A stretch of 23,745 nt of DNA from a virus (Duplodnaviria; Heunggongvirae; Uroviricota; Caudoviricetes). The position numbers and the translations under genes were made by a program. The stretch spans positions 1 to 23,745 of IMG/VR virus record IMGVR_UViG_3300027776_000001; one strand, given 5' to 3'. The notes beneath the pieces are model-generated. The model worked only from the letters and a program-made list of their open reading frames with translations, made no database searches and was not told the origin of the DNA. Below are positions 3 through 8,850 of this stretch, piece by piece (within the stretch, counting starts at the first letter, position 1; every line of letters begins with the position of its first letter).

Positions 3-446
3 GGAAGCCTAGCTAGAAATAAAAACGGGTATAATTACTGGCTAGTTACGTTGTTTGGTATTAGGTTGAAGGCACATAGAGTAGTCTGGATGTTGCACAA
101 CAAGCAAACTTTAGACAGATTTACATATGTAGATCACAAAGATAAGGATACCGCTAATAACAGTGTAGAAAACCTTCGTGCAGTTTCTCCTAGAATAAAC
201 TCCCAAAATAGGAAAGTTCCAAGCACCAGCAAGACAGGTGTAATTGGAGTCTACTATAAGGAGAATAAGAGGCTATTTGCAGCTACATGGTACTTTGAAG
301 GAAGTCCTTGCGTAAAGTATTTCAGTGTTGCTAAGTTAGGTTACGATAAGGCATTTTCAGAGGCTTGCAAATTCAGGGAAGAAATGATCAGTAAACTGAA
401 TCAGGAAGGGCAGCACTACACAGACAACCACGGAGATATTATATGA
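3..446 (+). CDS. HNH homing endonuclease with C-terminal AP2-like DNA-binding domain (5'-truncated by window edge)
   Basis: Frame is open from nt 3 (GSLARNKNGYNYWLVTLFG...). It has the motifs HRVVW, VDHKDKDTANNSVENLR and SKTGVIGV, and an AP2-like tail KYFSVAKLGYDKAFSEACKFR. Its stop overlaps the polymerase ATG (ATGA). Confidence 0.88.
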   Translation, partial: GSLARNKNGYNYWLVTLFGIRLKAHRVVWMLHNKQTLDRFTYVDHKDKDTANNSVENLRAVSPRINSQNRKVPSTSKTGVIGVYYKENKRLFAATWYFEGSPCVKYFSVAKLGYDKAFSEACKFREEMISKLNQEGQHYTDNHGDII

Positions 447-2023
447 ATGGTTTTTACATCGACTTAGAATCAGATAATCTTTATCTTCAGTCTACTAAGA
501 TTTGGTACATGAAACTCACTAGCCTTGATGGCTCACGGTCAATGCAGATTTGGCCTTTTCGTGAAAACCCAGACGATGTAGCACAAAAACTCGATAAATG
601 GGTTGCTAGCTTTACGGATGGTTGTTTTGTTGTGGGGCACGGTATTTTAGGGTATGATACATGGATGCTGTGGAAGTTTTATGGTATTCAACCAAAGGTC
701 GGGAAGAAGGGTAAGGATTGGTTAGGTGATAAGCATGTACAATTTATTGATACTCTGGTACTTTCGCAGTATCTTCAGCCAGATGTTGGTGGACACTCTC
801 TCGAATATCTTTCAGAAGGTAACGAGGAAGAGAAGCTAAAGTATCGGGAGAAACTGGTAGAAGCTGGAGCAATGGCGGGCAATGAGCCTAAAGGCTATGA
901 GTTCTCCTTCTATCATGATCTGATGGTGGAGTACTGTGATCAGGACGTAGCAGCAGGTATTGGAGTCTTCCACGACCTGTGGGGGAAGGCTGAGGAAATG
1001 TACAAGAACAATTGGATTCACAAATCCTACAATCAAGTACAGAAGGACTTCTTCCTTTATGCTGCTCAGTCATTCACTGGTGTTAAGTTTGATCAACAGA
1101 AAGCTATTGCTCTGGCAGAATCGATTGAGAAGATGATGGAAGAGATTAAGGCTGAAGTTGATCCTATCTTGCCACCACGGAAGCTGAAGAAAGCTGAAGA
1201 GGCGTTTTACAAGATTCCAGCCAAACCATTTACCAAGAATGGTGAGCATTCTGCTAATATGCTGAAGTGGCTGGAGAAGCATAAAGCCACAGTGGAAGAA
1301 CGTACAATCTATGCTTATGGTCGTACATTCAACCTGATTGCTAATGAAGTGCTGGACATTAAGCTTCCGATGGAGATTGATGATAATGCTGAGCTGAAGG
1401 ATTACTTCTTAGAGTCTGGTTGGGTTCCTCACGATGACTTCTGGAACTTCAAGCGTGATGAAAGAGGTAAGCCAGCAAGGGATGATCGTGGTCAGATTAT
1501 CAAAACCACTCCGAAGATTCAACATGCTGGGCAGATTTGTCCTAACTTGCTGAAGCTTGAGGCTGATACGCCAAAGAAAGTTGTGAAGTATCTTTCATTG
1601 CGTAATCGTCTTAGTGTGATTCGTGGTTGGCTTGGTAATGAACGTTTGAAGTATGATGGTCGTTTGAGTGCGAATATCACAGGTTATACGCCTACTTTCC
1701 GCGTCAAACACTCTACAGTGGTGAATGTACCCAAGGCTGATCCTAAAGTCCTTTTGGGCAATGAAATGCGAGAGTTGTTCACTGTTGAAGAGGGGAATTT
1801 CTACATCGGTACAGATGCTGCTGCGTTGGAAAACAGAACGCTGGCGTCCTATACTATGAAGTACGATGGTGGTGAGTTTGCAGATCGTCTGCTTAAGGGT
1901 GATAGTCATAGCTTCAACGCTTTTGCTTTCTTCCCTGAAATCAAGACTAAGTTTGACATTAACGATCCAACGTTGAAGGATCAGACTGAGTTTAAGCCGT
2001 ATCGTAACAAGAGTAAGACGGGT
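443..2023 (+). CDS. polA: DNA polymerase, family A (T7 gp5-like), exon 1
   Basis: ExoI (IDLESD), ExoII (GHGILGYD), ExoIII (YCDQDV) and motif A (GTDAAALENR) are present. The exon ends mid-motif B (RNKSKTG), at GGT immediately before the intron's first triplet TAA (2024-2026). Confidence 0.95.
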
Positions 2024-2734
2024 TAACATAACAGCCCCATTAGATCGAGAGTTCTAATGAAAATTGTGTGAATTCAGGGGAACCCCTAACGTAAAGACGA
2101 GGGCAATCCTGAGCGAAGCTAGATACTCTACTAAACAAGAAGAGAGGTAAGATGTATAGTAGAGGAAGAAATAAAGGTCAGGAAGCCAAACCAATGACCG
2201 CTAAACCAGAGAAATATCCGCAAGGGTATTTTAATGATAAGCCGTGTAAGGAGTGTAGCGCTAAGTTTTCGCCACTAGCCCCGTCGCATCTTTATTGTAC
2301 AGATGCTTGTGCGAAGTTGGCCTTCACTCGAAAATACTTAAAGAAGCAGTACAAAATAACATATGAGTTTTACATGGAAATGTACAACAAGTATGGTGGA
2401 AAATGCCATATCTGTAAAAGTGTAGGTTTTAAGATTGACCCTAATCAAAAACTGAACTTAGCAGTGGATCATTGCCACGAGACAGGATTAGTCCGAGGAA
2501 TGCTTTGCCATAATTGCAACAGAGCACTAGGATTATTCCAAGACAACACTGAGTATTTACGAAACGCGGTAGAGTATCTAGAACGTGCAACGACTATCCT
2601 AAATGGAGTAGCCCCAAGTGGGGCGAAGCGCACAACATCCGAAGTGGATGATGATATAGTCTGAGCTTTATGGAAACATAAAGACGCAGGTAAAGCTGCT
2701 GGGAATGCTTAACGATCATTCTTGAACATATCTG
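2024..2734 (+). mobile_element. Group I self-splicing intron (IA2-like, with P7.1/P7.2) carrying a homing endonuclease in P6
   Basis: Pairings read from the sequence: P1 GGGU(2020-2023)/GCCC(2034-2037) with U.G at the 5' splice site; P2 CATTAGA/TCTAATG; P3 TTGTGTG(2064-2070)/CGCACAA(2629-2635); P4 TCAGG/CCTGA; P7 GACTA(2592-2596)/TAGTC(2657-2661). Also present are P7.1, P7.2 (GCCCC-AAGT-GGGGC), P8 (CATCC-GAAGT-GGATG), P9 with a GAAA loop, terminal G2734, and P10 ATAAC(2028-2032)/GTTAT(2736-2740). Splicing restores motif B in frame. Confidence 0.93.
2152..2664 (+). CDS. Intron-encoded homing endonuclease, endonuclease VII (His-Me finger) family
   Basis: It has CHIC...LAVDHCHETGLVRGMLCHNCNRALG and an N-terminal CxxC...C...C zinc motif. 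The RBS GAGAGG precedes ATG 2152, and the ORF lies within the intron. Confidence 0.9.
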   Translation: MYSRGRNKGQEAKPMTAKPEKYPQGYFNDKPCKECSAKFSPLAPSHLYCTDACAKLAFTRKYLKKQYKITYEFYMEMYNKYGGKCHICKSVGFKIDPNQKLNLAVDHCHETGLVRGMLCHNCNRALGLFQDNTEYLRNAVEYLERATTILNGVAPSGAKRTTSEVDDDIV

Positions 2735-3262
2735 AGTTATTTGCTGGCTTATGGTGGAGGTGTGGGTAAGCTTGCTTCGAGTCTTGGCCTGAACAAGGCT
2801 GCCGCTCAAGTGGCATACGACAACTATTGGACGGCTAACTATGGTCTTGGTCAATTCAAGGAGAAGATTGAGGCCTACTTCAACACGACAGGTAAGAAGA
2901 AGCACATTCCTGCTTGGGATGGGCGACTGCTGTCTATACGTGGTAAGAATGTTCTGGTAAACTGTGCTGGTCAGTCTCTTGGTGCGATCTGTATGAGCAT
3001 TGCTGCTTGTATGATGGATCAGGAGCTTGGTGAAATGTATCTTGACGAACTAGACCGTCCGTATTATGTTTACAAGGGTAAGATAGTGAAGCGCGTAAGT
3101 TTGTTCCACGATGAGTATTCTTGGGAAGTTGAAGAGGGTATTGAGGAAGAAATTCGTGTCTTGTCTGTCAACTGTATCATTCGTGCTGGCGAGTACCTGA
3201 AGCTTCCGATTCCTCTTGACGGGGAAGGAAAGATAGGGCATACTTGGAAAGATGTTCACTAA
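2735..3262 (+). CDS. polA: DNA polymerase, family A, exon 2
   Basis: Starts AGT TAT TTG CTG GCT TAT GGT (SYLLAYG), completing motif B. It contains NCAGQSLGA, motif C (FHDEY) and the C-terminal GKIGHTWKDVH. The spliced protein is 527+175 = 702 aa. Confidence 0.95.
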   Translation, partial: SYLLAYGGGVGKLASSLGLNKAAAQVAYDNYWTANYGLGQFKEKIEAYFNTTGKKKHIPAWDGRLLSIRGKNVLVNCAGQSLGAICMSIAACMMDQELGEMYLDELDRPYYVYKGKIVKRVSLFHDEYSWEVEEGIEEEIRVLSVNCIIRAGEYLKLPIPLDGEGKIGHTWKDVH

Positions 3263-3275
3263 CTAGGAAATTACC

Positions 3276-3671
3276 ATGAAGACTTTTGCAATTGCTCTCA
3301 CCCTGTTGTCCACTGCCGCTATGGCGCAACCATTCGCTACCAAGATTCAGGAAAGCACATGCGAAGTGATTGCTAAGAGTGATAGTGTTCTTGGTACAGC
3401 CGCTGGTGGCGTAGCTGGTGGTGTTGCAGGCCGAGTGATTAGCAAGGGTCTGTTTGGCCGTAAGGCTTCTGGCTGGGGTGCTTTGGCAGGTGCTGTTGGT
3501 GGTGCTATCATCGGCAATAACATGGCATCTAACAAAACCTATAGCTGCATTGTGGGGTATCGTGATGCAAAGTCGAAGCTTGTCTACTCCCAAGTGGTTG
3601 GCAAGGAGCGCCGTATTGGCGAGGCCATCACTGTATTCCAATCTGAGAATGGGCAAATTATTGTGCAATGA
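3276..3671 (+). CDS. Secreted/membrane glycine-zipper protein
   Basis: Signal-peptide-like N-terminus (MKTFAIALTLLSTAAMA) and GxxxG repeats (GTAAGGVAGGVAG; GALAGAVGGAIIG). Confidence 0.7.
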   Translation: MKTFAIALTLLSTAAMAQPFATKIQESTCEVIAKSDSVLGTAAGGVAGGVAGRVISKGLFGRKASGWGALAGAVGGAIIGNNMASNKTYSCIVGYRDAKSKLVYSQVVGKERRIGEAITVFQSENGQIIVQ

Positions 3672-4510
3672 AAGAACTGACTGAAAGAGATAAGGTACAA
3701 ATCCGCCTGCTAGATCAGGTGGATTACCATAGCCTTGGTAAGGAAGAGCAGAAGAGTATTCTGATGCAACTACTGTCCTATGGTTGTCCCCTGATCTATT
3801 TGCAAGAGAAGTGGGGAGTGACAGACAAATCCCTACGTTTCTTGATAAGGAAATTGAACGTAAAGAAAAAGATGCGTCCTACGTTGCACAGGTATGAATG
3901 GGACAGGGTATTGACTCAAGTTCCTGAAGTCGTGCGCTTCCAAAGACCATCAGTGAAGGCTGTTGCAAATCCGTTCTCACATGAAAATAGAGACGGGAAG
4001 AAGAGGCTCACTGCCACTGAAGTAATGTATATTGTTAAGCTTCTTGAGAGTGGTCACACGTATTCTGCCATAAGGGCAATCACTGGGTGTAGCACTGAGT
4101 CTATCCAACGCATTCGTAGTGGAAAGAATAAGTACTACCCAAGGCGAGTGCATGTGCATAAGAAGGTGAAGGTAAAAAATGTTGCAGAAGTGAAGGCAAT
4201 CCCCTTGACAAAAGCTCAATGGGAGAGTATAGTAAGCACAGTTGTTGAGGCCTTTCTTGCAGGTAAGGAACATACGCTGCTGGTATTCCCTAAAGGGACA
4301 TGCCCGCCCAATTGGTTCTGCAAGAAAGTTAGGGCGTTGTCTTCTTTTGACAGAACGAGTGATTGTGTTCGCAAAGGAGGAACAGCAGCGTATAAGACGA
4401 AATCTTTGTTGACGAAGTTTGAGGAAGTAGGTATAGTGAAGTTCTCAGTTTCGTATCTTGAAGAGGCAAAGAAAAAGCTTGACAAGATCGAGAAGATGTT
4501 GTATAATTGA
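3668..4510 (+). CDS. Hypothetical protein with two putative helix-turn-helix segments
   Basis: 280-aa basic ORF coupled to the upstream gene by an ATGA overlap. HTH-like segments are GCPLIYLQEKWGVTDKSLRFLI and GHTYSAIRAITGCSTESIQRIRSG. Confidence 0.55.
   Translation: MKELTERDKVQIRLLDQVDYHSLGKEEQKSILMQLLSYGCPLIYLQEKWGVTDKSLRFLIRKLNVKKKMRPTLHRYEWDRVLTQVPEVVRFQRPSVKAVANPFSHENRDGKKRLTATEVMYIVKLLESGHTYSAIRAITGCSTESIQRIRSGKNKYYPRRVHVHKKVKVKNVAEVKAIPLTKAQWESIVSTVVEAFLAGKEHTLLVFPKGTCPPNWFCKKVRALSSFDRTSDCVRKGGTAAYKTKSLLTKFEEVGIVKFSVSYLEEAKKKLDKIEKMLYN
4479..4507 (+). promoter_or_regulatory. Consensus sigma70 promoter for the tRNA cluster
   Basis: TTGACA(4479-4484)-17 nt-TATAAT(4502-4507), embedded in the 3' end of the upstream CDS and ending 17 nt before tRNA-Leu. 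Confidence 0.85.
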
Positions 4511-4524
4511 TTACTCTGAAATAT

Positions 4525-4613
4525 GGGCTGGTGGCGAAGCTGGTTGAAACGCATCGGACTTAAAATTCGACACATCAGAAACATCGTGGGTTCAACTCCC
4601 ACCCAGCCTACCA
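4525..4613 (+). tRNA. tRNA-Leu (UAA)
   Basis: Acceptor stem GGGCTGG/CCAGCCT, anticodon arm TCGGA-CT TAA AA-TTCGA, long variable region, T arm GTGGG-TTCAACT-CCCAC, encoded CCA. Confidence 0.92.
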
Positions 4614-4674
4614 TACTTTAGCAAGATGCAACCTGAGCACAGGTGCAAGGGGAGTTGTACTCTCCAAGAACAAT

Positions 4675-4750
4675 AGCCTCGTAGCTTAACGGATAGAGCA
4701 GGGAGCTTCTACCTCCCAAAGTGGGGATTCGATTTCCTCCGGGGCTGCCA
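4675..4750 (+). tRNA. tRNA-Arg (UCU)
   Basis: Acceptor stem AGCCTCG/CGGGGCT, anticodon arm GGGAG-CT TCT AC-CTCCC, T loop TTCGATT, encoded CCA, 76 nt. Confidence 0.92.
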
Positions 4751-4766: not shown

Positions 4767-5249
4767 ATGATACTTGAACTAGAAGAACCATTCAGAAGCA
4801 AATGGAGGAAGGGTTATATCAGAACTTCTGCCATTGATGGGCGAAGAAGAGTGGATTTGTTCAATTCCAACACGGACAGAACAACTATAAGCTATAGCCG
4901 TTATTTGGTTTCCGTTAAATTAAAACGGATTCTTGAAGAGTTTGAGGAAGTTGACCACATAGACGGAGATAGCTTGAATGATGATTTGAGTAATCTTCAG
5001 GTTCTATCTAAACCTCAACACTTGGCTAAGACTACCCAAGAGGTCAGGGTAGGCAGGTTGTGTGTTGTGTTGCAGTGCCCGGAATGCTCAGTTCTCTTTA
5101 CAAGAGAGGTGCGCAATTTAAAAGGTAAGCTTAGTTTTTGCAGCAAAACTTGCTCAACTAGATTTCACAAGACTGCAAGTGAAGTTGAGTTCAATGAAGC
5201 AGTAGGACTACAGATAGAAGCGAAAAAGCACCGAACAAGATCAAAATAA
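4767..5249 (+). CDS. HNH homing endonuclease with C-terminal zinc-finger-like motif
   Basis: EVDHIDGDSLNDDLSNLQVL HNH motif, followed by CPEC...FCSKTC. Confidence 0.88.
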   Translation: MILELEEPFRSKWRKGYIRTSAIDGRRRVDLFNSNTDRTTISYSRYLVSVKLKRILEEFEEVDHIDGDSLNDDLSNLQVLSKPQHLAKTTQEVRVGRLCVVLQCPECSVLFTREVRNLKGKLSFCSKTCSTRFHKTASEVEFNEAVGLQIEAKKHRTRSK

Positions 5250-5252
5250 AGC

Positions 5253-5281
5253 TTGACACAGAGAAAAATCTGTGATAGTAT
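5253..5281 (+). promoter_or_regulatory. sigma70 promoter (extended -10) upstream of the Y RNA array and Ro60
   Basis: TTGACA(5253-5258)-17 nt-TAGTAT(5276-5281) with TGn at 5273-5275 and an A-rich upstream tract. It shares AAAGCTTGACA with the 4479 promoter. Confidence 0.8.
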
Positions 5282-5305
5282 TACGGAAAATGCAGTAAAG
5301 AAATT

Positions 5306-5371
5306 GGAATGTGTTGTGAAAAGGGTTACTTCTGGCATTGAAACTAACACCCTTCTCTTTGTTACCATTCC
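5306..5371 (+). ncRNA. Minimal Y-RNA-like unit 1 (class B)
   Basis: Closing stem GGAATG/CATTCC, internal loop TGTTGT...TTGTTAC, upper stem AAGGGT/ACCCTT and the shared GTTACTTC motif. It lies upstream of a Ro60 gene. Confidence 0.7.
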
Positions 5372-5379
5372 GCAAGTTA

Positions 5380-5519
5380 TGGACGTAGTGAATAGACAGT
5401 TACTTCACTTTTAATGACGAGGTCGTAGGTTCGAATCCTACCATGAATGATTCTTCGGAAAAGTTCGTGTAGCTTAGTTGGTAGAGCGCGATAATATCTG
5501 TCTAGTTTGTTCTCGTCCA
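5380..5519 (+). ncRNA. yrlA: YrlA-type Y RNA with circularly permuted tRNA-like domain (unit 2, class A)
   Basis: Closing stem TGGACG/CGTCCA, TAGTGA...TTGTTCT internal loop, stem TAGACAG/CTGTCTA and GTTACTTC. These enclose a T arm (GTAGG-TTCGAAT-CCTAC), an acceptor-like stem (CATGAA/TTCGTG) and a D arm (TAGCTTAGTTGGTAGAGC), in the order T, acceptor, D. Confidence 0.88.
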
Positions 5520-5526
5520 GTTATTC

Positions 5527-5598
5527 GGCAGTAGTGAAGCAGGCGGTTACTTCTTTCTTTTTGCGAAAACCAACGATCCGCCTCAGTTGTTCTCTGCC
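5527..5598 (+). ncRNA. Minimal Y-RNA-like unit 3 (class A)
   Basis: Closing stem GGCAG/CTGCC, TAGTGA...TTGTTCT internal loop as in unit 2, upper stem AGGCGG/CCGCCT, GTTACTTC motif. Confidence 0.72.
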
Positions 5599-5606
5599 TC
5601 TAATTT

Positions 5607-5674
5607 GTAGAGTGTTGTTTGTTAGGGTTACTTCTATTGGATGAAACTTACACCCTAACTCTTGTTACCTCTAC
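5607..5674 (+). ncRNA. Minimal Y-RNA-like unit 4 (class B)
   Basis: Closing stem GTAGAG/CTCTAC, TGTTGT...TTGTTAC internal loop, upper stem TTAGGGT/ACCCTAA, GTTACTTC. It shares AGGGTTACTTCT..GAAACTnACACCCT with unit 1. Confidence 0.72.
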
Positions 5675-5699
5675 TCCCCTCTCTTAAAAGGAGATATTC

Positions 5700-7073
5700 A
5701 TGTCATCACTGAATAAGCGCACCAAGCAAGTCCCTACCGAAGTTAACGAAGTAGGTACTCCAGTCTTCAAGATCAACGCCAAGCAAGAACTTCAGCGTCT
5801 CACTTTTGCCTATCTTCTGTTTGAAGATCAGTTCTACATTGATGGCAAGCGCAGTGCTGACAAATTGATCGAAGCTGTTGGCAAAGTATCTCCTCAGTTC
5901 GCACAACAAGTTGCCATAGAAGCACGTACTAAGTACAAGCTGCGCCATGTTCCTCTGCTTATCACTGCTGCTCTGATCAAGAACGGTACTGCCACTGTGG
6001 ACGGTATCGCTGAAGTTATTCAGCGTGCTGATGAAATGGGTGAGCTGTTGGCGATTTACAATCGTGACGGTAAGCGCCCTCTGGCTAACAAGCTGAAGAA
6101 AGGTATTGCCAAGGCTTTCCTGAAGTTCAATGAATTTCAGCTTGCCAAGAATGACAAGAATAGCGCAGCATACTCTATTCGTGATGTGATGTTCCTCACC
6201 CATCCGAAGCCAACTAATAAGGAACAAGCTGACTTGTTCAAGCGAATTGCTGATCAAGATATGTTTGTACCTGAGACTTGGGAAACTGAGTTGTCTGCTG
6301 GTGCTGATAAGAAGGTTACTTTTGAATACCTGATGGCTAACAATAAAATGGGTGCCTTGGCTTTCTTGCGTAACCTTCGCAATATGTCTCAAGCTGGTGT
6401 AGATCGTGCCTTGATTCGCACATACGGTAAGTCTGTCAACGTTGATAAGGTGTTGCCATACCAGTTTATTACTGCACAAAAGTATGCTCCAGAGTTTACG
6501 GACATGCTTGAGCAAATGATGTTCAAGGCTTTGGAAAATATCCCTAAGCTTCCGGGCCGCACTGTTCTTGTGGTTGATACTAGTGGCTCTATGGGTGCTA
6601 GCGTTTCCAGCAGGTCTGAGCTTACTCGTTTGCAAGCTGCTGCAGCAATTACTATCCTAGCACGAGAAATCTGTGAAGAGGTGGTCATATATGCAACGGC
6701 AGGCGATGACAGGTACCGGAAACATGCAACGATGTTGATTCCCTCTTACCGTGGTTTTGCTCTTGCTGATTTCATCACTGGTACGAAGGTTTCTATGCAA
6801 ATTGGTGGTGGTGGTATCTTCCTGCTTCAGTGCATGGATTATATTGCCAATGAAGAAAAGGATGATGTGGTTGATCGTGTGATTGTTTTCACTGATGAGC
6901 AAGACACTGGCGGACGAGGATTTGAGCCCCACAATGCCAAGCGTCTAGGTAAGACAAACTACATCTTGAATGTAGGTGCTTATCAGAATGGTGTTAACCA
7001 CAAGGATTGGACTACTGTAACTGGTTTCTCTGAAGCAACTCTGGCATATATTGCAGCTTTGGAAGGTAACTAA
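5700..7073 (+). CDS. rsr: Ro60/Rsr-like TROVE + vWA domain RNA-binding protein
   Basis: TROVE-type segments LRHVPLL, IQRADEMGELLAIY, IRDVMFLTHPKP, PETWETELS and ALAFLRNLRNM. vWA MIDAS VDTSGSM and VIVFTDEQ. RBS AGGAGA. Adjacent Y RNAs support the call. Confidence 0.93.
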   Translation: MSSLNKRTKQVPTEVNEVGTPVFKINAKQELQRLTFAYLLFEDQFYIDGKRSADKLIEAVGKVSPQFAQQVAIEARTKYKLRHVPLLITAALIKNGTATVDGIAEVIQRADEMGELLAIYNRDGKRPLANKLKKGIAKAFLKFNEFQLAKNDKNSAAYSIRDVMFLTHPKPTNKEQADLFKRIADQDMFVPETWETELSAGADKKVTFEYLMANNKMGALAFLRNLRNMSQAGVDRALIRTYGKSVNVDKVLPYQFITAQKYAPEFTDMLEQMMFKALENIPKLPGRTVLVVDTSGSMGASVSSRSELTRLQAAAAITILAREICEEVVIYATAGDDRYRKHATMLIPSYRGFALADFITGTKVSMQIGGGGIFLLQCMDYIANEEKDDVVDRVIVFTDEQDTGGRGFEPHNAKRLGKTNYILNVGAYQNGVNHKDWTTVTGFSEATLAYIAALEGN

Positions 7074-7212: not shown

Positions 7213-7286
7213 GCGGGACTGGTATAGTGACTGTGCCTTGGCCTTCCAAGCCAATGAGAAGGGTTTGATTCCCTTGTCCCGCTCCA
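7213..7286 (+). tRNA. tRNA-Gly (UCC)
   Basis: Acceptor stem GCGGGAC/GTCCCGC, anticodon arm TTGGC-CT TCC AA-GCCAA, T loop TTTGATT (non-canonical), encoded CCA. Confidence 0.9.
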
Positions 7287-7362
7287 AACACACAACCAGA
7301 GCAGACTGAAGACAACATGCGCCCTGCCGAGGACTGATATAAATGACGTTACAGCAGGCTTC

Positions 7363-7438
7363 TGGGGAGTAGCACAATTGGTAGTGCAGCAGATTTTGAT
7401 TCTGTTGGTTGCTGGTTCGAGTCCAGCCTCCCTTGCCA
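7363..7438 (+). tRNA. tRNA-Gln (UUG)
   Basis: D arm GCAC...GTGC, anticodon arm GCAGA-TT TTG AT-TCTGT, T arm GCTGG-TTCGAGT-CCAGC, U1:U72 mismatch, encoded CCA. Confidence 0.9.
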
Positions 7439-8231: not shown

Positions 8232-8261
8232 AGCCCTGTCCCGAAAGGGGCGGGGCTTTTT
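8232..8261 (+). terminator. Rho-independent terminator
   Basis: AGCCCTGTCCC-GAAA-GGGGCGGGGCT hairpin followed by a T run, just after the ssb stop. Confidence 0.88.
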
Positions 8262-8283
8262 GTTCTTCAGAATAGGAGATTTT

Positions 8284-8850
8284 ATGGACATAAGAGATTA
8301 TGTTGAATATTCACCTGACAGTCCTTCTGGATTGCTATGGAAAGTTGATAGACACGGCGGCAAGGATGGCAGGATTCTCGCGGCCAAGAAAGGGAGTGTT
8401 GCAGGGTCTAAAGGACAGTTACACTGGGAAGTCGGTGTAGACAAGGAGAAGTATTTAGTGCATAGGGTGGTTTGGTTTTTGCTACACAAGGAATGGCCTG
8501 CATTGCCTATTGACCATATTGATGGAGATGGGTTTAACAACAATCACACAAATCTTCGTCTTGCCACACATAAACAAAACATGTGCAATAGATGGATGAA
8601 TAAAAATAATACCTCTGGAATCACTGGTGTTTCAGAATTGAAAACAAACCAAGAACACCGTTTCATTGCCAGATGGCATGATATGAATGGCAGCCCTAAG
8701 AGTAAATCATTTTCAGTTAAGAAGTACGGCTACGATGAAGCAAGAAAGCTTGCAGAGGATTTTCGTAAGTCAGTAATTTCAGAATTAATTGAGCAAGGAA
8801 TTTACTCTAAGAGACATGGGAGTAGAAGAAATGAAGCAACTGATCTTTGA
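8284..8850 (+). CDS. HNH homing endonuclease with AP2-like domain
   Basis: ATG 8284 after AGGAG. Motifs YSPDSPSGLLW, HRVVW, IDHIDGDGFNNNHTNLR, NTSGITGV and KSFSVKKYGYDEA. Confidence 0.9.
   Translation: MDIRDYVEYSPDSPSGLLWKVDRHGGKDGRILAAKKGSVAGSKGQLHWEVGVDKEKYLVHRVVWFLLHKEWPALPIDHIDGDGFNNNHTNLRLATHKQNMCNRWMNKNNTSGITGVSELKTNQEHRFIARWHDMNGSPKSKSFSVKKYGYDEARKLAEDFRKSVISELIEQGIYSKRHGSRRNEATDL

What the first reader, a model, noticed from the sequence alone, without database searches (positions are those of the whole stretch)
5253..7073. Phage Ro60 operon with a tandem array of four Y-RNA-like units under its own promoter
Seen: four self-closing stem units (5306-5371, 5380-5519, 5527-5598, 5607-5674) lie between a strong sigma70 promoter and a Ro60/TROVE gene. 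Each has a closing stem, an internal loop with a 3' UUGUU, an upper stem and an invariant GTTACTTC. Stem sequences differ between units while pairing is kept, which looks like covariation. Established: bacterial Rsr binds Y RNAs through the terminal stem, Y RNAs tether it to effectors such as PNPase, and rsr is often co-transcribed with yrl RNAs and rtcB. Inference: this phage makes a family of interchangeable Ro60 RNPs from one transcript, placed inside its tRNA cluster. That suggests RNA surveillance/repair or counter-defence. No rtcB is present in this window.
Basis: partly seen in the sequence, partly recalled or inferred. Interest (0 to 1): 0.88.

Follow-up and report, generated by a model that had tools for sequence, protein, structure and literature searches.

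The report
Phage Ro60 gene with Y-RNA array
An uncultured phage carries a gene for the ring-shaped RNA-binding protein Ro60, preceded by four small RNA genes that share one conserved docking "handle". Such arrays flank most related phage Ro60 genes, so this extends the known Ro60-Y RNA partnership and does not found a new kind.

Summary
Four self-closing units (5306-5371, 5380-5519, 5527-5598, 5607-5674) lie between a promoter-like site (5253-5281) and a true Ro60 gene (5700-7073), which has TROVE and vWA domains and a Ro60 fold. All four share a handle: closing stem, bulged U, two covarying base pairs, an internal loop (5' UG, 3' UGUU), an upper stem, then UUACUUC. Unit 2 aligns end to end with Rfam YrlA but scores below its threshold, and it carries a permuted tRNA-like body. 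Units 1, 3 and 4 are short hairpins.

A covariance model of the handle hits only these four sites in the 87.7-kb genome. In 76 further Ro60 loci (74 viral contigs, 2 bacterial MAGs) it finds 188 units, all on the Ro60 strand, in 70 loci, with 1-6 per locus. Covariation is strong: 91.5% of cells paired against 55.7% when shuffled.

This is best read as a divergent, array-forming branch of the known Ro60/Y RNA (YrlA/YrlB) system. Ro60 binding, processing and function are inferred, not shown, because no RNA data could be obtained. The genome has no RtcB and no Rnl2-type ligase. This scan has noted similar Ro60 handle-RNA arrays on other phage DNA. I found no paper describing the short units or the arrays.

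The parts
4525..4750 (+). Upstream tRNA genes: tRNA-Leu(taa) 4525-4613 and tRNA-Arg(tct) 4675-4750, behind a consensus promoter-like site at 4479-4507
   Evidence: ARAGORN, Rfam tRNA, promoter scan
4767..5249 (+). HNH endonuclease ORF (160 aa) lying between the tRNAs and the array. In relatives L002 and L020 the array follows a tRNA-Leu directly.
   Evidence: Pfam HNH_3, 25.5 bits; sequences of L002 and L020
5253..5281 (+). Sigma70-type promoter-like site, TTGACA-17 nt-TAGTAT with a TG extension, ending 25 nt before unit 1
   Evidence: Promoter scan, 10 of 12 matches. A promoter-like site sits 20-25 nt before the first unit in L003, L004, L006, L007, L008 and L013 as well.
5306..5371 (+). Unit 1, a short handle RNA (66 nt): GGAAUG | U | GU | UGUGAA | AAGGGU | UACUUC + mini-hairpin head | ACCCUU | CUCUUUGUU | AC | CAUUCC
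   Evidence: R2 61.1 bits, E 2.8e-12; fold; segment parse
5380..5519 (+). Unit 2, a YrlA-type handle RNA (140 nt). After UUACUUC come a hairpin with a CU-UUU-AA loop, a T arm (GUAGG-UUCGAAU-CCUAC), a closed 7-bp acceptor-like hairpin and a D arm (GCUU-AGUUGGUA-GAGC).
   Evidence: Rfam YrlA RF02553, model positions 1-114, 35.9 bits, E 3e-6 (same hit); R2 37 bits; alignment with relatives
5527..5598 (+). Unit 3, a short handle RNA (72 nt): GGCAG | U | AG | UGAAGC | AGGCGG | UUACUUC + hairpin UUUC-UUUUUGC-GAAA + ACCAACGAU | CCGCCU | CAGUUGUU | CU | CUGCC
   Evidence: R2 40.6 bits, E 3.3e-7; fold; alignment with the second downstream units of relatives
5607..5674 (+). Unit 4, a short handle RNA (68 nt) and paralogue of unit 1: GUAGAG | U | GU | UGUUU | GUUAGGGU | UACUUC + head | ACCCUAAC | UCUUGUU | AC | CUCUAC
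   Evidence: R2 82.3 bits; fold z-score -2.4. This unit was the seed of model R1.
5675..5699 (+). Ro60 leader with Shine-Dalgarno AGGAG (5689-5693). A weak hairpin (UCUCUU/AGGAGA) can cover it. No terminator lies between the array and the gene.
   Evidence: Sequence; fold of 5285-5700; terminator scan found none on + between 5674 and 7213
5700..7073 (+). Ro60 (TROVE + vWA) gene, 457 aa, with MIDAS DTSGS at residues 293-297. It is the only TROVE gene in the genome.
   Evidence: Pfam TROVE 47.8 bits and VWA_2; PHROG 850 full length; PDB 9KOP/9L5Y, E 3e-15 over residues 19-455; AF2 model plus Foldseek with the top 13 hits all Ro60, TM 0.61-0.72; single TROVE gene
7213..7438 (+). Downstream tRNA-Gly(tcc) 7213-7286 and tRNA-Gln(ttg) 7363-7438, possibly on the same transcript
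   Evidence: ARAGORN and Rfam; no terminator-like site between Ro60 and these tRNAs

Best explanation
The region is an operon for a phage Ro60 ribonucleoprotein set.

Proposed mechanism:
- The promoter-like site at 5253-5281 drives one transcript. It carries four Y-RNA-like units, then the Ro60 mRNA, and probably the two downstream tRNAs.
- Host RNases cut in the 7-8-nt A/U-rich spacers. The closing stems define the ends of four small RNAs of about 66, 140, 72 and 68 nt.
- Each RNA docks on the Ro60 ring through the shared handle: closing stem, bulged U, two covarying base pairs, a conserved asymmetric internal loop, an upper stem of fixed length, and UUACUUC. This handle is the counterpart of the Rsr-binding stem of bacterial YrlA.
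- The heads differ. Unit 2 displays a circularly permuted tRNA-like body. Units 1, 3 and 4 display only a small hairpin.
- The RNAs therefore act as alternative adaptors or gates. They connect Ro60 to different host partners, such as PNPase or tRNA-binding enzymes, and so reshape RNA (probably tRNA) turnover or blunt RNA-directed host defences during infection.

Shown here: the anatomy, the conservation, the covariation, the strand-specific linkage to Ro60, and the Ro60 fold.
Inferred: transcription from this promoter, processing, Ro60 binding, and the cellular role.
For: Ro60 identity:
- Pfam TROVE and VWA_2.
- Full-length match to the solved Thermus phage phiLo Ro60.
- A fold model whose 13 best PDB matches are all Ro60.

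Kinship with YrlA:
- Unit 2 matches Rfam YrlA over model positions 1-114.
- The handle has the same order of elements as the YrlA consensus.
- It contains the YUAY motif that Chen et al. describe as starting the V loop.

Specificity:
- Model R2 hits only the four units in the window.
- It hits nothing else in the 87.7-kb genome.

Conservation and linkage:
- There were 40 hits in the first 13 sources.
- There were 188 hits at E <= 0.01 in 76 further Ro60 loci.
- All 228 hits lie on the Ro60 strand. Of the 76 further loci, 70 hold at least one unit.
- The bare sequence signature occurs 200 times on the + strands and 4 times on the - strands.

Covariation:
- 91.5% of cells are paired against 55.7% in shuffles.
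- The covariation score is 0.898 against 0.214, reached by 0 of 500 shuffles. Slid controls give 0.10-0.17.
- All 16 pairs show changes on both sides.
- The 2 bp after the bulged U switch between GU:AC, AG:CU and GG:CC.

Conserved unpaired bases: U7 in 39 of 40, G11 in 39 of 39, UUACUUC in 37-40 of 40, and UU in 38-40 of 40.

Promoter position is conserved in 7 loci.

Precedent:
- M. smegmatis YrlA and YrlB lie upstream of rsr, come from one precursor and are bound by Rsr (PMC4201824).
- phiLo Yrl1 and Yrl2 lie upstream of phiRo60, bind it, and form ternary complexes with host PNPase (PMC12135203).
Against: - There are no RNA data.
- Ro60 binding is untested.
- Unit 2 scores 35.9 bits against a YrlA gathering score of 69. 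Units 1, 3 and 4 have no Rfam match.
- The published GNCGAAN0-1G Rsr-site motif is not present as such. Here the site reads ..CG-U-AGUG or ..UG-U-GUUG.
- Folding energies are not significantly below shuffled sequence.
- The covariation alignment was fitted to the model structure and R2 was trained on some of the same loci, which inflates pair counts somewhat.
- Some units in relatives lie 1.5-2 kb from Ro60 among tRNAs. Six of the 76 loci have none within 2.5 kb.
Confidence: 0.8

Rival explanations
1. The units are functional small RNAs, but Ro60 is not their docking partner. On this view they are tRNA-part mimics that act alone or with another protein, for example as decoys or substrates for tRNA-modifying or tRNA-cleaving enzymes. 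They merely share an operon with Ro60.
For: Many units carry tRNA parts. Examples are T arms, D arms and a hairpin whose 7-nt loop reads CU-NNN-AA in 32 units with many different triplets. In the window and its nearest relatives they lie inside tRNA clusters.
Against: The only element common to all units is the handle, not the tRNA-like head. The handle matches the Rsr-binding end of YrlA. Linkage to Ro60 holds in loci with no tRNA genes at all: L047 and L061 have 6 units each and 0 tRNAs. The upper stem keeps a fixed length between two conserved blocks, which fits one protein reading both.
Confidence: 0.1
2. The stem-loops are cis-acting leader elements of the Ro60 mRNA, not separate RNAs. 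They would serve autoregulation by Ro60, attenuation, or protection and processing of the mRNA.
For: The units lie between a promoter-like site and the Ro60 start with no terminator between. A weak hairpin can cover the Shine-Dalgarno sequence.
Against: Relatives carry the same units downstream of Ro60, behind other ORFs, or 1.5-2 kb away among tRNAs. Unit number varies from 1 to 6 or more. In L002 and L020 the array follows a tRNA directly, with no promoter of its own. A leader would not need four different heads.
Confidence: 0.06
3. The short units 1, 3 and 4 are decaying remnants of YrlA or tRNA genes with no function of their own. Only unit 2 would be a working Y RNA.
For: Mobile endonuclease genes remodel this region. 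An HNH ORF lies at 4767-5249. In L004 a YrlA-type unit is broken by a GIY-YIG gene, and in L006 its interior is deleted.
Against: Short units are the best-scoring and most widespread class. They keep compensatory stem changes and conserved head features (UGAAA, ACNAAC) across phages whose Ro60 proteins are only 38-64% identical. This indicates purifying selection.
Confidence: 0.04

Closest known systems
Bacterial and phage YrlA (Rfam RF02553; Chen et al. 2014, PMC4201824)
   Same: Encoded next to Ro60 on the same strand. The 5' and 3' ends pair into a stem with an internal loop that is the presumed Rsr site. The YUAY motif follows the upper stem. A tRNA-like body has a T arm, a closed acceptor-like stem and a D arm. 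Unit 2 aligns to the whole model.
   Different: Unit 2 scores half the gathering score. The GNCGAAN0-1G motif is replaced by stem-U-(GU/AG/GG)-UG. YUAY is extended to an almost invariant UUACUUC. The V-position hairpin has an anticodon-loop-like CU-NNN-AA loop. Units 1, 3 and 4 have no tRNA-like body at all.
Short second Y RNAs: S. Typhimurium YrlB, M. smegmatis YrlB, D. radiodurans Yrn2 (PMC4201824)
   Same: These are short hairpin RNAs encoded beside YrlA and Ro60. They share the Ro60-site motif with the longer RNA. In M. smegmatis both are cut from one precursor upstream of rsr. Their loops are small and pyrimidine-rich.
   Different: Published searches found YrlB homologues only in Salmonella serovars. 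Here the short units form one conserved family across many phage lineages and occur in arrays of up to 6 or more. No sequence comparison with YrlB was possible because I held no YrlB sequence.
Thermus phage phiLo phiRo60 with Yrl1 and Yrl2 (PMC12135203; PDB 9KOP, 9L5Y)
   Same: A phage Ro60 with Y-like RNAs directly upstream. It is the closest solved structure to this protein (E 3e-15, TM 0.72). Binding to Ro60 and ternary complexes with host PNPase were shown there.
   Different: phiLo has two RNAs defined by a CGAA motif. Here there are four with a different handle signature. The proteins are only about 21% identical. There is no biochemistry for the present units.
Metazoan Y RNAs (for example the four human Y RNAs) with Ro60
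   Same: Several small RNAs share a Ro60-binding terminal stem with a bulged nucleotide and differ in their loops. The modular handle-plus-head logic is the same.
   Different: There is no sequence similarity. The metazoan RNAs are separate pol III genes, not one operon. Their heads are not tRNA-like.
Bas63 gp130, a Ro60-like protein scored as a counter to the ppl defence system (bioRxiv 10.1101/2024.10.10.617714)
   Same: A phage Ro60-fold protein lies next to a tRNA gene block, and the authors suspected some of those 'tRNAs' are Y RNAs. It gives experimental support for a counter-defence role.
   Different: Only structural similarity to Ro60 was reported. tblastn with this window's Ro60 did not list Escherichia phages among its main groups. 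No RNA partner was shown.

Membership tests
Ro60 / Rsr protein family (TROVE + vWA ring) | TROVE (HEAT-repeat ring) domain | tested here: met
   Pfam PF05731, 47.8 bits against a cut-off of 23. PHROG 850 matches the full length. The helical repeat region is modelled at residues 27-278.
Ro60 / Rsr protein family (TROVE + vWA ring) | C-terminal vWA domain with a MIDAS motif | tested here: met
   VWA_2 matches residues 288-400, E 2e-4, 22.4 bits, below the cut-off of 27. DxSxS = DTSGS at residues 293-297 and a TDEQD motif are read from the translation.
Ro60 / Rsr protein family (TROVE + vWA ring) | Overall fold superposes on solved Ro60 structures | tested here: met
   Foldseek ranks 1-13 are all Ro60: phiLo TM 0.72, D. 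radiodurans Rsr 0.63, Xenopus 0.66, human 0.61. The next hit has TM 0.18. Model pLDDT is 75.
YrlA (Rfam RF02553; Chen et al. 2014) | Score at or above the Rfam gathering threshold (69 bits) | tested here: not met
   Unit 2 scores 35.9 bits, E 3e-6, though over the full model length 1-114. Units 1, 3 and 4 have no hit at E <= 10.
YrlA (Rfam RF02553; Chen et al. 2014) | Within 4 kb of Ro60, on the same strand | tested here: met
   All four units lie 26-394 nt upstream of the Ro60 start on the + strand.
YrlA (Rfam RF02553; Chen et al. 2014) | GNCGAAN0-1G motif near the 5' end (presumed Rsr site) | tested here: not met
   The units read GACG-U-AGUG (unit 2), GCAG-U-AGUG (unit 3), and AAUG-U-GUUG and AGAG-U-GUUG (units 1, 4). 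The placement is related but the published motif is absent.
YrlA (Rfam RF02553; Chen et al. 2014) | Conserved YUAY at the start of the V loop | tested here: met
   UUAC directly follows the upper stem in all four units and in 37-40 of 40 aligned units.
YrlA (Rfam RF02553; Chen et al. 2014) | tRNA-like domain: T arm, acceptor-like stem, D arm | tested here: met
   Met for unit 2 only: GUAGG-UUCGAAU-CCUAC, a 7-bp closed stem, and GCUU-AGUUGGUA-GAGC. It is absent from units 1, 3 and 4, whose heads extend only 12-14 nt past the aligned motif columns.
Y RNA in the functional sense (Ro60-bound ncRNA) | Physically bound by Ro60 and dependent on it for accumulation | not testable with these tools
   This needs RIP/CLIP, EMSA or a Ro60 deletion.
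Y RNA in the functional sense (Ro60-bound ncRNA) | Terminal stem formed by the 5' and 3' ends with a conserved bulged or internal-loop site, supported by covariation | tested here: met
   All 16 pairs show changes on both sides. 91.5% of cells are paired against 55.7% shuffled, and the slid controls collapse.

The most novel reading that the evidence does not exclude
The arrays would be a phage 'display rack'. One Ro60-docking handle carries interchangeable heads that copy parts of tRNAs. In many units the head is an anticodon-stem-loop look-alike with a fixed CU-NNN-AA frame and a triplet that changes even between otherwise near-identical orthologous units (UGU, GCU, UUU and CUU in four relatives). 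On this reading the Ro60 RNPs act as decoys, sponges or sensors for host tRNA-targeting defence nucleases or tRNA-modifying enzymes, and the variable triplets record an arms race. This would be a new kind of RNA-based counter-defence built on the Ro60/Y RNA chassis.
Probability: 0.15. Interest if true: 0.85.

Novelty: new variant of a known kind. Interest (0 to 1): 0.6.

Why it matters
Ro60 and Y RNAs are conserved from bacteria to humans and Ro60 is a major autoantigen, yet what bacterial and phage Ro60 RNPs do is still largely open.

- **Number of partners.** Phage Ro60 genes usually come with several partner RNAs, not one or two. I counted 1-6 within 2.5 kb in 70 of 76 loci.
- **A conserved handle.** These RNAs share one sharply conserved handle that current Rfam models miss or score below threshold.
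- **Graded heads.** The variable heads range from a bare hairpin to a full permuted tRNA.
- **What this enables.** The result gives a ready covariance model for annotating these RNAs in phage genomes. It also gives a defined set of invariant bases to mutate in binding studies. Cultured phages with the same handle are available for RNA-seq, CLIP and defence-system assays: Xanthomonas phage MET23-P3, crAss001 and CcrColossus.
- **Limit.** For this window alone, the result is a well-supported example of that class and not something without precedent.

Tried and rejected
- **MAFFT alignments of the short units** put gaps in the wrong places. RNAalifold on the five YrlA-type units drew a wrong closing stem. 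I therefore seeded a covariance model from one unit with a hand-written structure and rebuilt it from its own hits.
- **Megablast** of the locus against GenBank phages found nothing. Blastn matched only the tRNA-like part of unit 2 to the YrlA of Xanthomonas and Xylella phages.
- **Thermodynamic tests** gave no significant signal.
- **The motif-only '3' anchor = first GTT(AC|CT)' rule** failed for long units, because it catches the next unit's GTTAC.
- **RNA repair partners.** There is no RtcB and no Rnl2-type ligase in the genome. The Rnl1 search was uninformative because its control genomes were silent.
- **Literature.** The supplement tables of Chen et al. 2014 and the 2020 Annual Review on bacterial Ro60 are not held. 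I therefore could not check how many phage loci with several YrlA copies were already tabulated.
- **Protein-coding readings** of ORFs 5253-5414(+) and 5165-5368(-) were rejected. Conservation follows RNA pairing, not a reading frame.
- **Repeats, CRISPR-like arrays or homing sites** were rejected. Stem sequences differ between units while pairing is kept, and all 228 model hits lie on one strand.
Full report
**What is there**

The window is the first 23.7 kb of an 87.7-kb uncultured-virus record with direct terminal repeats.

The ORF at 5700-7073 (+) encodes a 457-aa protein with these features:
- A Pfam TROVE hit above the cut-off and a vWA domain.
- A full-length PHROG 'RNA-binding protein' match.
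- An intact MIDAS DTSGS motif.
- A full-length sequence match to the crystallised Ro60 of Thermus phage phiLo.
- An AlphaFold model (pLDDT 75) whose 13 best PDB matches are all Ro60 proteins of phage, bacterium, frog and human, with TM 0.61-0.72.

It is the only TROVE gene in the genome.

The site is TTGACA-17-TAGTAT with a TG extension, at 5253-5281. No terminator-like site separates the array from Ro60, or Ro60 from tRNA-Gly and tRNA-Gln downstream. tRNA-Leu and tRNA-Arg and an HNH endonuclease ORF lie upstream. The wider setting is the replication block: a family-A DNA polymerase split by a group I intron, an SSB-like protein, an exonuclease and ribonucleotide reductase.

**Anatomy of the units**

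Each unit reads, 5' to 3':
- a closing stem of 5-6 bp
- a bulged U
- two base pairs
- a 5' loop that starts UG
- an upper stem that mostly ends C-A/G-G
- UUACUUC
- a variable head
- the upper stem 3' strand
- a 3' loop that ends U-G-U-U
- the two base pairs
- the closing stem 3' strand

The two pairs after the bulge are GU:AC in units 1 and 4 and AG:CU in units 2 and 3. Units 1 and 4 are paralogues. Units 2 and 3 share UAGUGAA and UUGUUCU.

Unit 2 has a 98-nt head with four parts:
- a hairpin with a CU-UUU-AA loop
- a T arm
- a closed 7-bp acceptor-like hairpin
- a D arm

This is a circularly permuted tRNA shape, as described for YrlA. Rfam YrlA aligns to unit 2 over its whole length at 35.9 bits, E 3e-6, below the gathering score of 69.

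Units 1, 3 and 4 carry only a small hairpin that starts in the CUUC of the motif, followed by an ACNAAC-like linker. The Rfam alignment shows the handle is laid out like the Rsr-binding end of YrlA: stem, one extra base, one pair, loop with UG, upper stem, CUAC, and a 3' loop with CUUGU. The UUAC of the motif corresponds to the conserved YUAY that Chen et al. place at the start of the V loop.

**Is it more than chance?**

- GTTACTTC occurs five times on the + strand of the genome and never on the - strand, against about 1.5 expected per strand. Four copies lie in the array, each 13-14 nt after the 5' motif.
- With anchors chosen from sequence motifs alone, the closing stems pair in 20 of 20 cells. 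No other assignment of 3' to 5' flanks does better than 18.
- Folding energy by itself is not significant, so I relied on comparative evidence.

**Relatives**

Eight IMG/VR contigs with Ro60 at 48-53% identity carry the same units around their Ro60 genes.

I built a covariance model from unit 4 with a hand-written structure, rebuilt it from its 11 hits, and searched again.
- Model R2 found exactly the four units in the window and 36 more in relatives and GenBank phages.
- GenBank hits include Xanthomonas phage MET23-P3 (four R2 hits plus one Rfam YrlA hit in tandem before Ro60), crAss001, Microcystis phage Mvi-JY20 and Caulobacter phage CcrColossus.
- All hits are on the Ro60 strand.
- The rest of the window's genome has no hit.

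On the 40-unit alignment:
- 91.5% of cells pair, against 55.7% after shuffling.
- The covariation score is 0.898 against 0.214, reached by 0 of 500 shuffles.
- Sliding the partner by 1-3 columns drops the score to 0.10-0.17.
- All 16 pairs change on both sides.

This alignment is fitted to the model, so the figures lean towards the structure. The margin is nevertheless very large.

The unpaired bulged U, the loop G, UUACUUC and the 3' UU are almost invariant. A third form of the 2-bp step, GG:CC, appears in relatives.

**How general is it?**

I used an alignment of six Ro60 proteins to fetch 80 more viral loci and two bacterial MAG loci.

Over 76 loci not seen before (452 kb, both strands), R2 gave 188 hits at E <= 0.01:
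- Every hit is on the Ro60 strand.
- 70 loci hold at least one hit.
- By my tally of that table, 9 loci have one unit, 27 have two, 21 have three, 5 have four, 6 have five and 2 have six, within 2.5 kb of the gene.

The bare sequence signature occurs 200 times on the + strands and 4 times on the - strands.

Units lie upstream, downstream or on both sides of Ro60. The nearest relative (64% identity) has three upstream, directly behind a tRNA-Leu, and one downstream. tRNA clusters surround the locus in the window's near relatives. Two loci with six units have no tRNA gene, so the constant partner is Ro60, not tRNA genes.

A promoter-like site sits 20-25 nt before the first unit in seven loci.

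**Mechanism**

The best reading is an operon for a set of Ro60 RNPs. One transcript is cut in the short A/U-rich spacers into four small RNAs. These dock on Ro60 through the common handle and present different heads.

The precedents are direct:
- M. smegmatis YrlA and YrlB lie upstream of rsr, come from one precursor and are bound by Rsr (PMC4201824).
- Thermus phage phiLo Yrl1 and Yrl2 lie upstream of its Ro60, bind it, and form ternary complexes with host PNPase (PMC12135203).

A counter-defence role has one experimental hint. The Ro60-like gp130 of phage Bas63, which also lies next to tRNA genes, was scored as a counter to the ppl system (10.1101/2024.10.10.617714).

The genome has no RtcB and no Rnl2-type ligase. 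The Salmonella-type repair operon is therefore not the model here.

Processing, binding and function are inferences.

**Comparison and novelty**

Against the published criteria for YrlA:
- Unit 2 meets location, strand, YUAY and the tRNA-like domain.
- Unit 2 fails the Rfam threshold and the exact GNCGAAN0-1G motif.
- Units 1, 3 and 4 meet only location and YUAY, and they share unit 2's handle.

I therefore file the units as a divergent, phage-centred variant of the Ro60/Y RNA system and not as members of Rfam YrlA.

Already known:
- Phages encode Ro60 with nearby YrlA.
- Two Y RNAs can precede Ro60 on one precursor.

Not found in the papers I could search:
- A conserved family of short handle-only units.
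- The near-invariant UUACUUC.
- Arrays as the normal state of phage Ro60 loci.

Earlier notes of this scan report the same kind of Ro60 plus handle-RNA array on many other phage genomes. My survey agrees with them independently. Within this scan it is a recurrent class.

**A lead worth following**

In at least 32 units the hairpin after UUACUUC has a 7-nt loop with the frame CU-NNN-AA and many different middle triplets. Four otherwise near-identical orthologous units in related phages differ there: UGU, GCU, UUU and CUU. In the window, unit 2 has CU-UUU-AA. This suggests anticodon-loop mimicry with a fast-changing triplet. I did not test it statistically.

Noticed in passing
window 443-3262: The family-A DNA polymerase gene is split into 443-2026 and 2741-3262 by a group I intron (Rfam, 2014-2683). 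The intron carries an Endonuclease VII-type ORF (2152-2664).
   Followed up: partly
window 5400-5445; L003 2853-2985; L007 2851-2983; L002 2811-2950; alignment A8 (L004, L006, L008, L003 second downstream units): The hairpin right after UUACUUC often has an anticodon-loop-like 7-nt loop CU-NNN-AA. The triplet differs between orthologous, otherwise near-identical units. It reads UUU, UCU, GCU and UGU in the YrlA-type units, and UGU, GCU, UUU and CUU in four short units. Across all loci, 32 units show this frame with more than 20 different triplets.
   Followed up: partly
L004 2230-3014 (same in L005); L006 2255-2275: In two relatives the YrlA-type unit just before Ro60 is interrupted after its 5' handle by a GIY-YIG endonuclease gene (Pfam, 23.7 bits). 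In L006 the interior of that unit is cleanly deleted, leaving the closing-stem halves adjacent.
   Followed up: partly
window 4767-5249 and 8260-8850: There are two HNH endonuclease ORFs, the second with an AP2 domain. The first sits between the upstream tRNAs and the array promoter, where relatives L002 and L020 have the array directly behind tRNA-Leu.
   Followed up: partly
L003 6965-7296, L006 6120-6536, L008 6260-6658: Related phages carry a tmRNA gene a few kb downstream of Ro60 in the same tRNA block (Rfam permuted tmRNA, 102-116 bits).
   Followed up: no
L009 2272-2832: In one relative a pyrimidine-dimer DNA glycosylase-like ORF (Pfam Pyr_excise, 23.1 bits) lies between a run of upstream handle units (five by model R2, six by the 5' sequence signature) and Ro60.
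   Followed up: no
L019 2161-2429; L018 532-605: Two bacterial MAG contigs (Acidobacteriota, on a 5-Mb contig, and Desulfobacterales) have one or two handle units directly upstream of a Ro60 homologue at 42-44% identity. The handle family is therefore not confined to viral contigs. A prophage origin was not checked.
   Followed up: no
window 5682-5695: A weak hairpin (UCUCUU-AAA-AGGAGA) can sequester the Ro60 Shine-Dalgarno sequence.
   Followed up: no
L011 3684-3827 (crAss001): An unannotated 144-nt Rfam tRNA match (46.6 bits) lies 95 nt after a handle unit (3508-3589), in the 0.9-kb unannotated gap downstream of the crAss001 TROVE gene.
   Followed up: no
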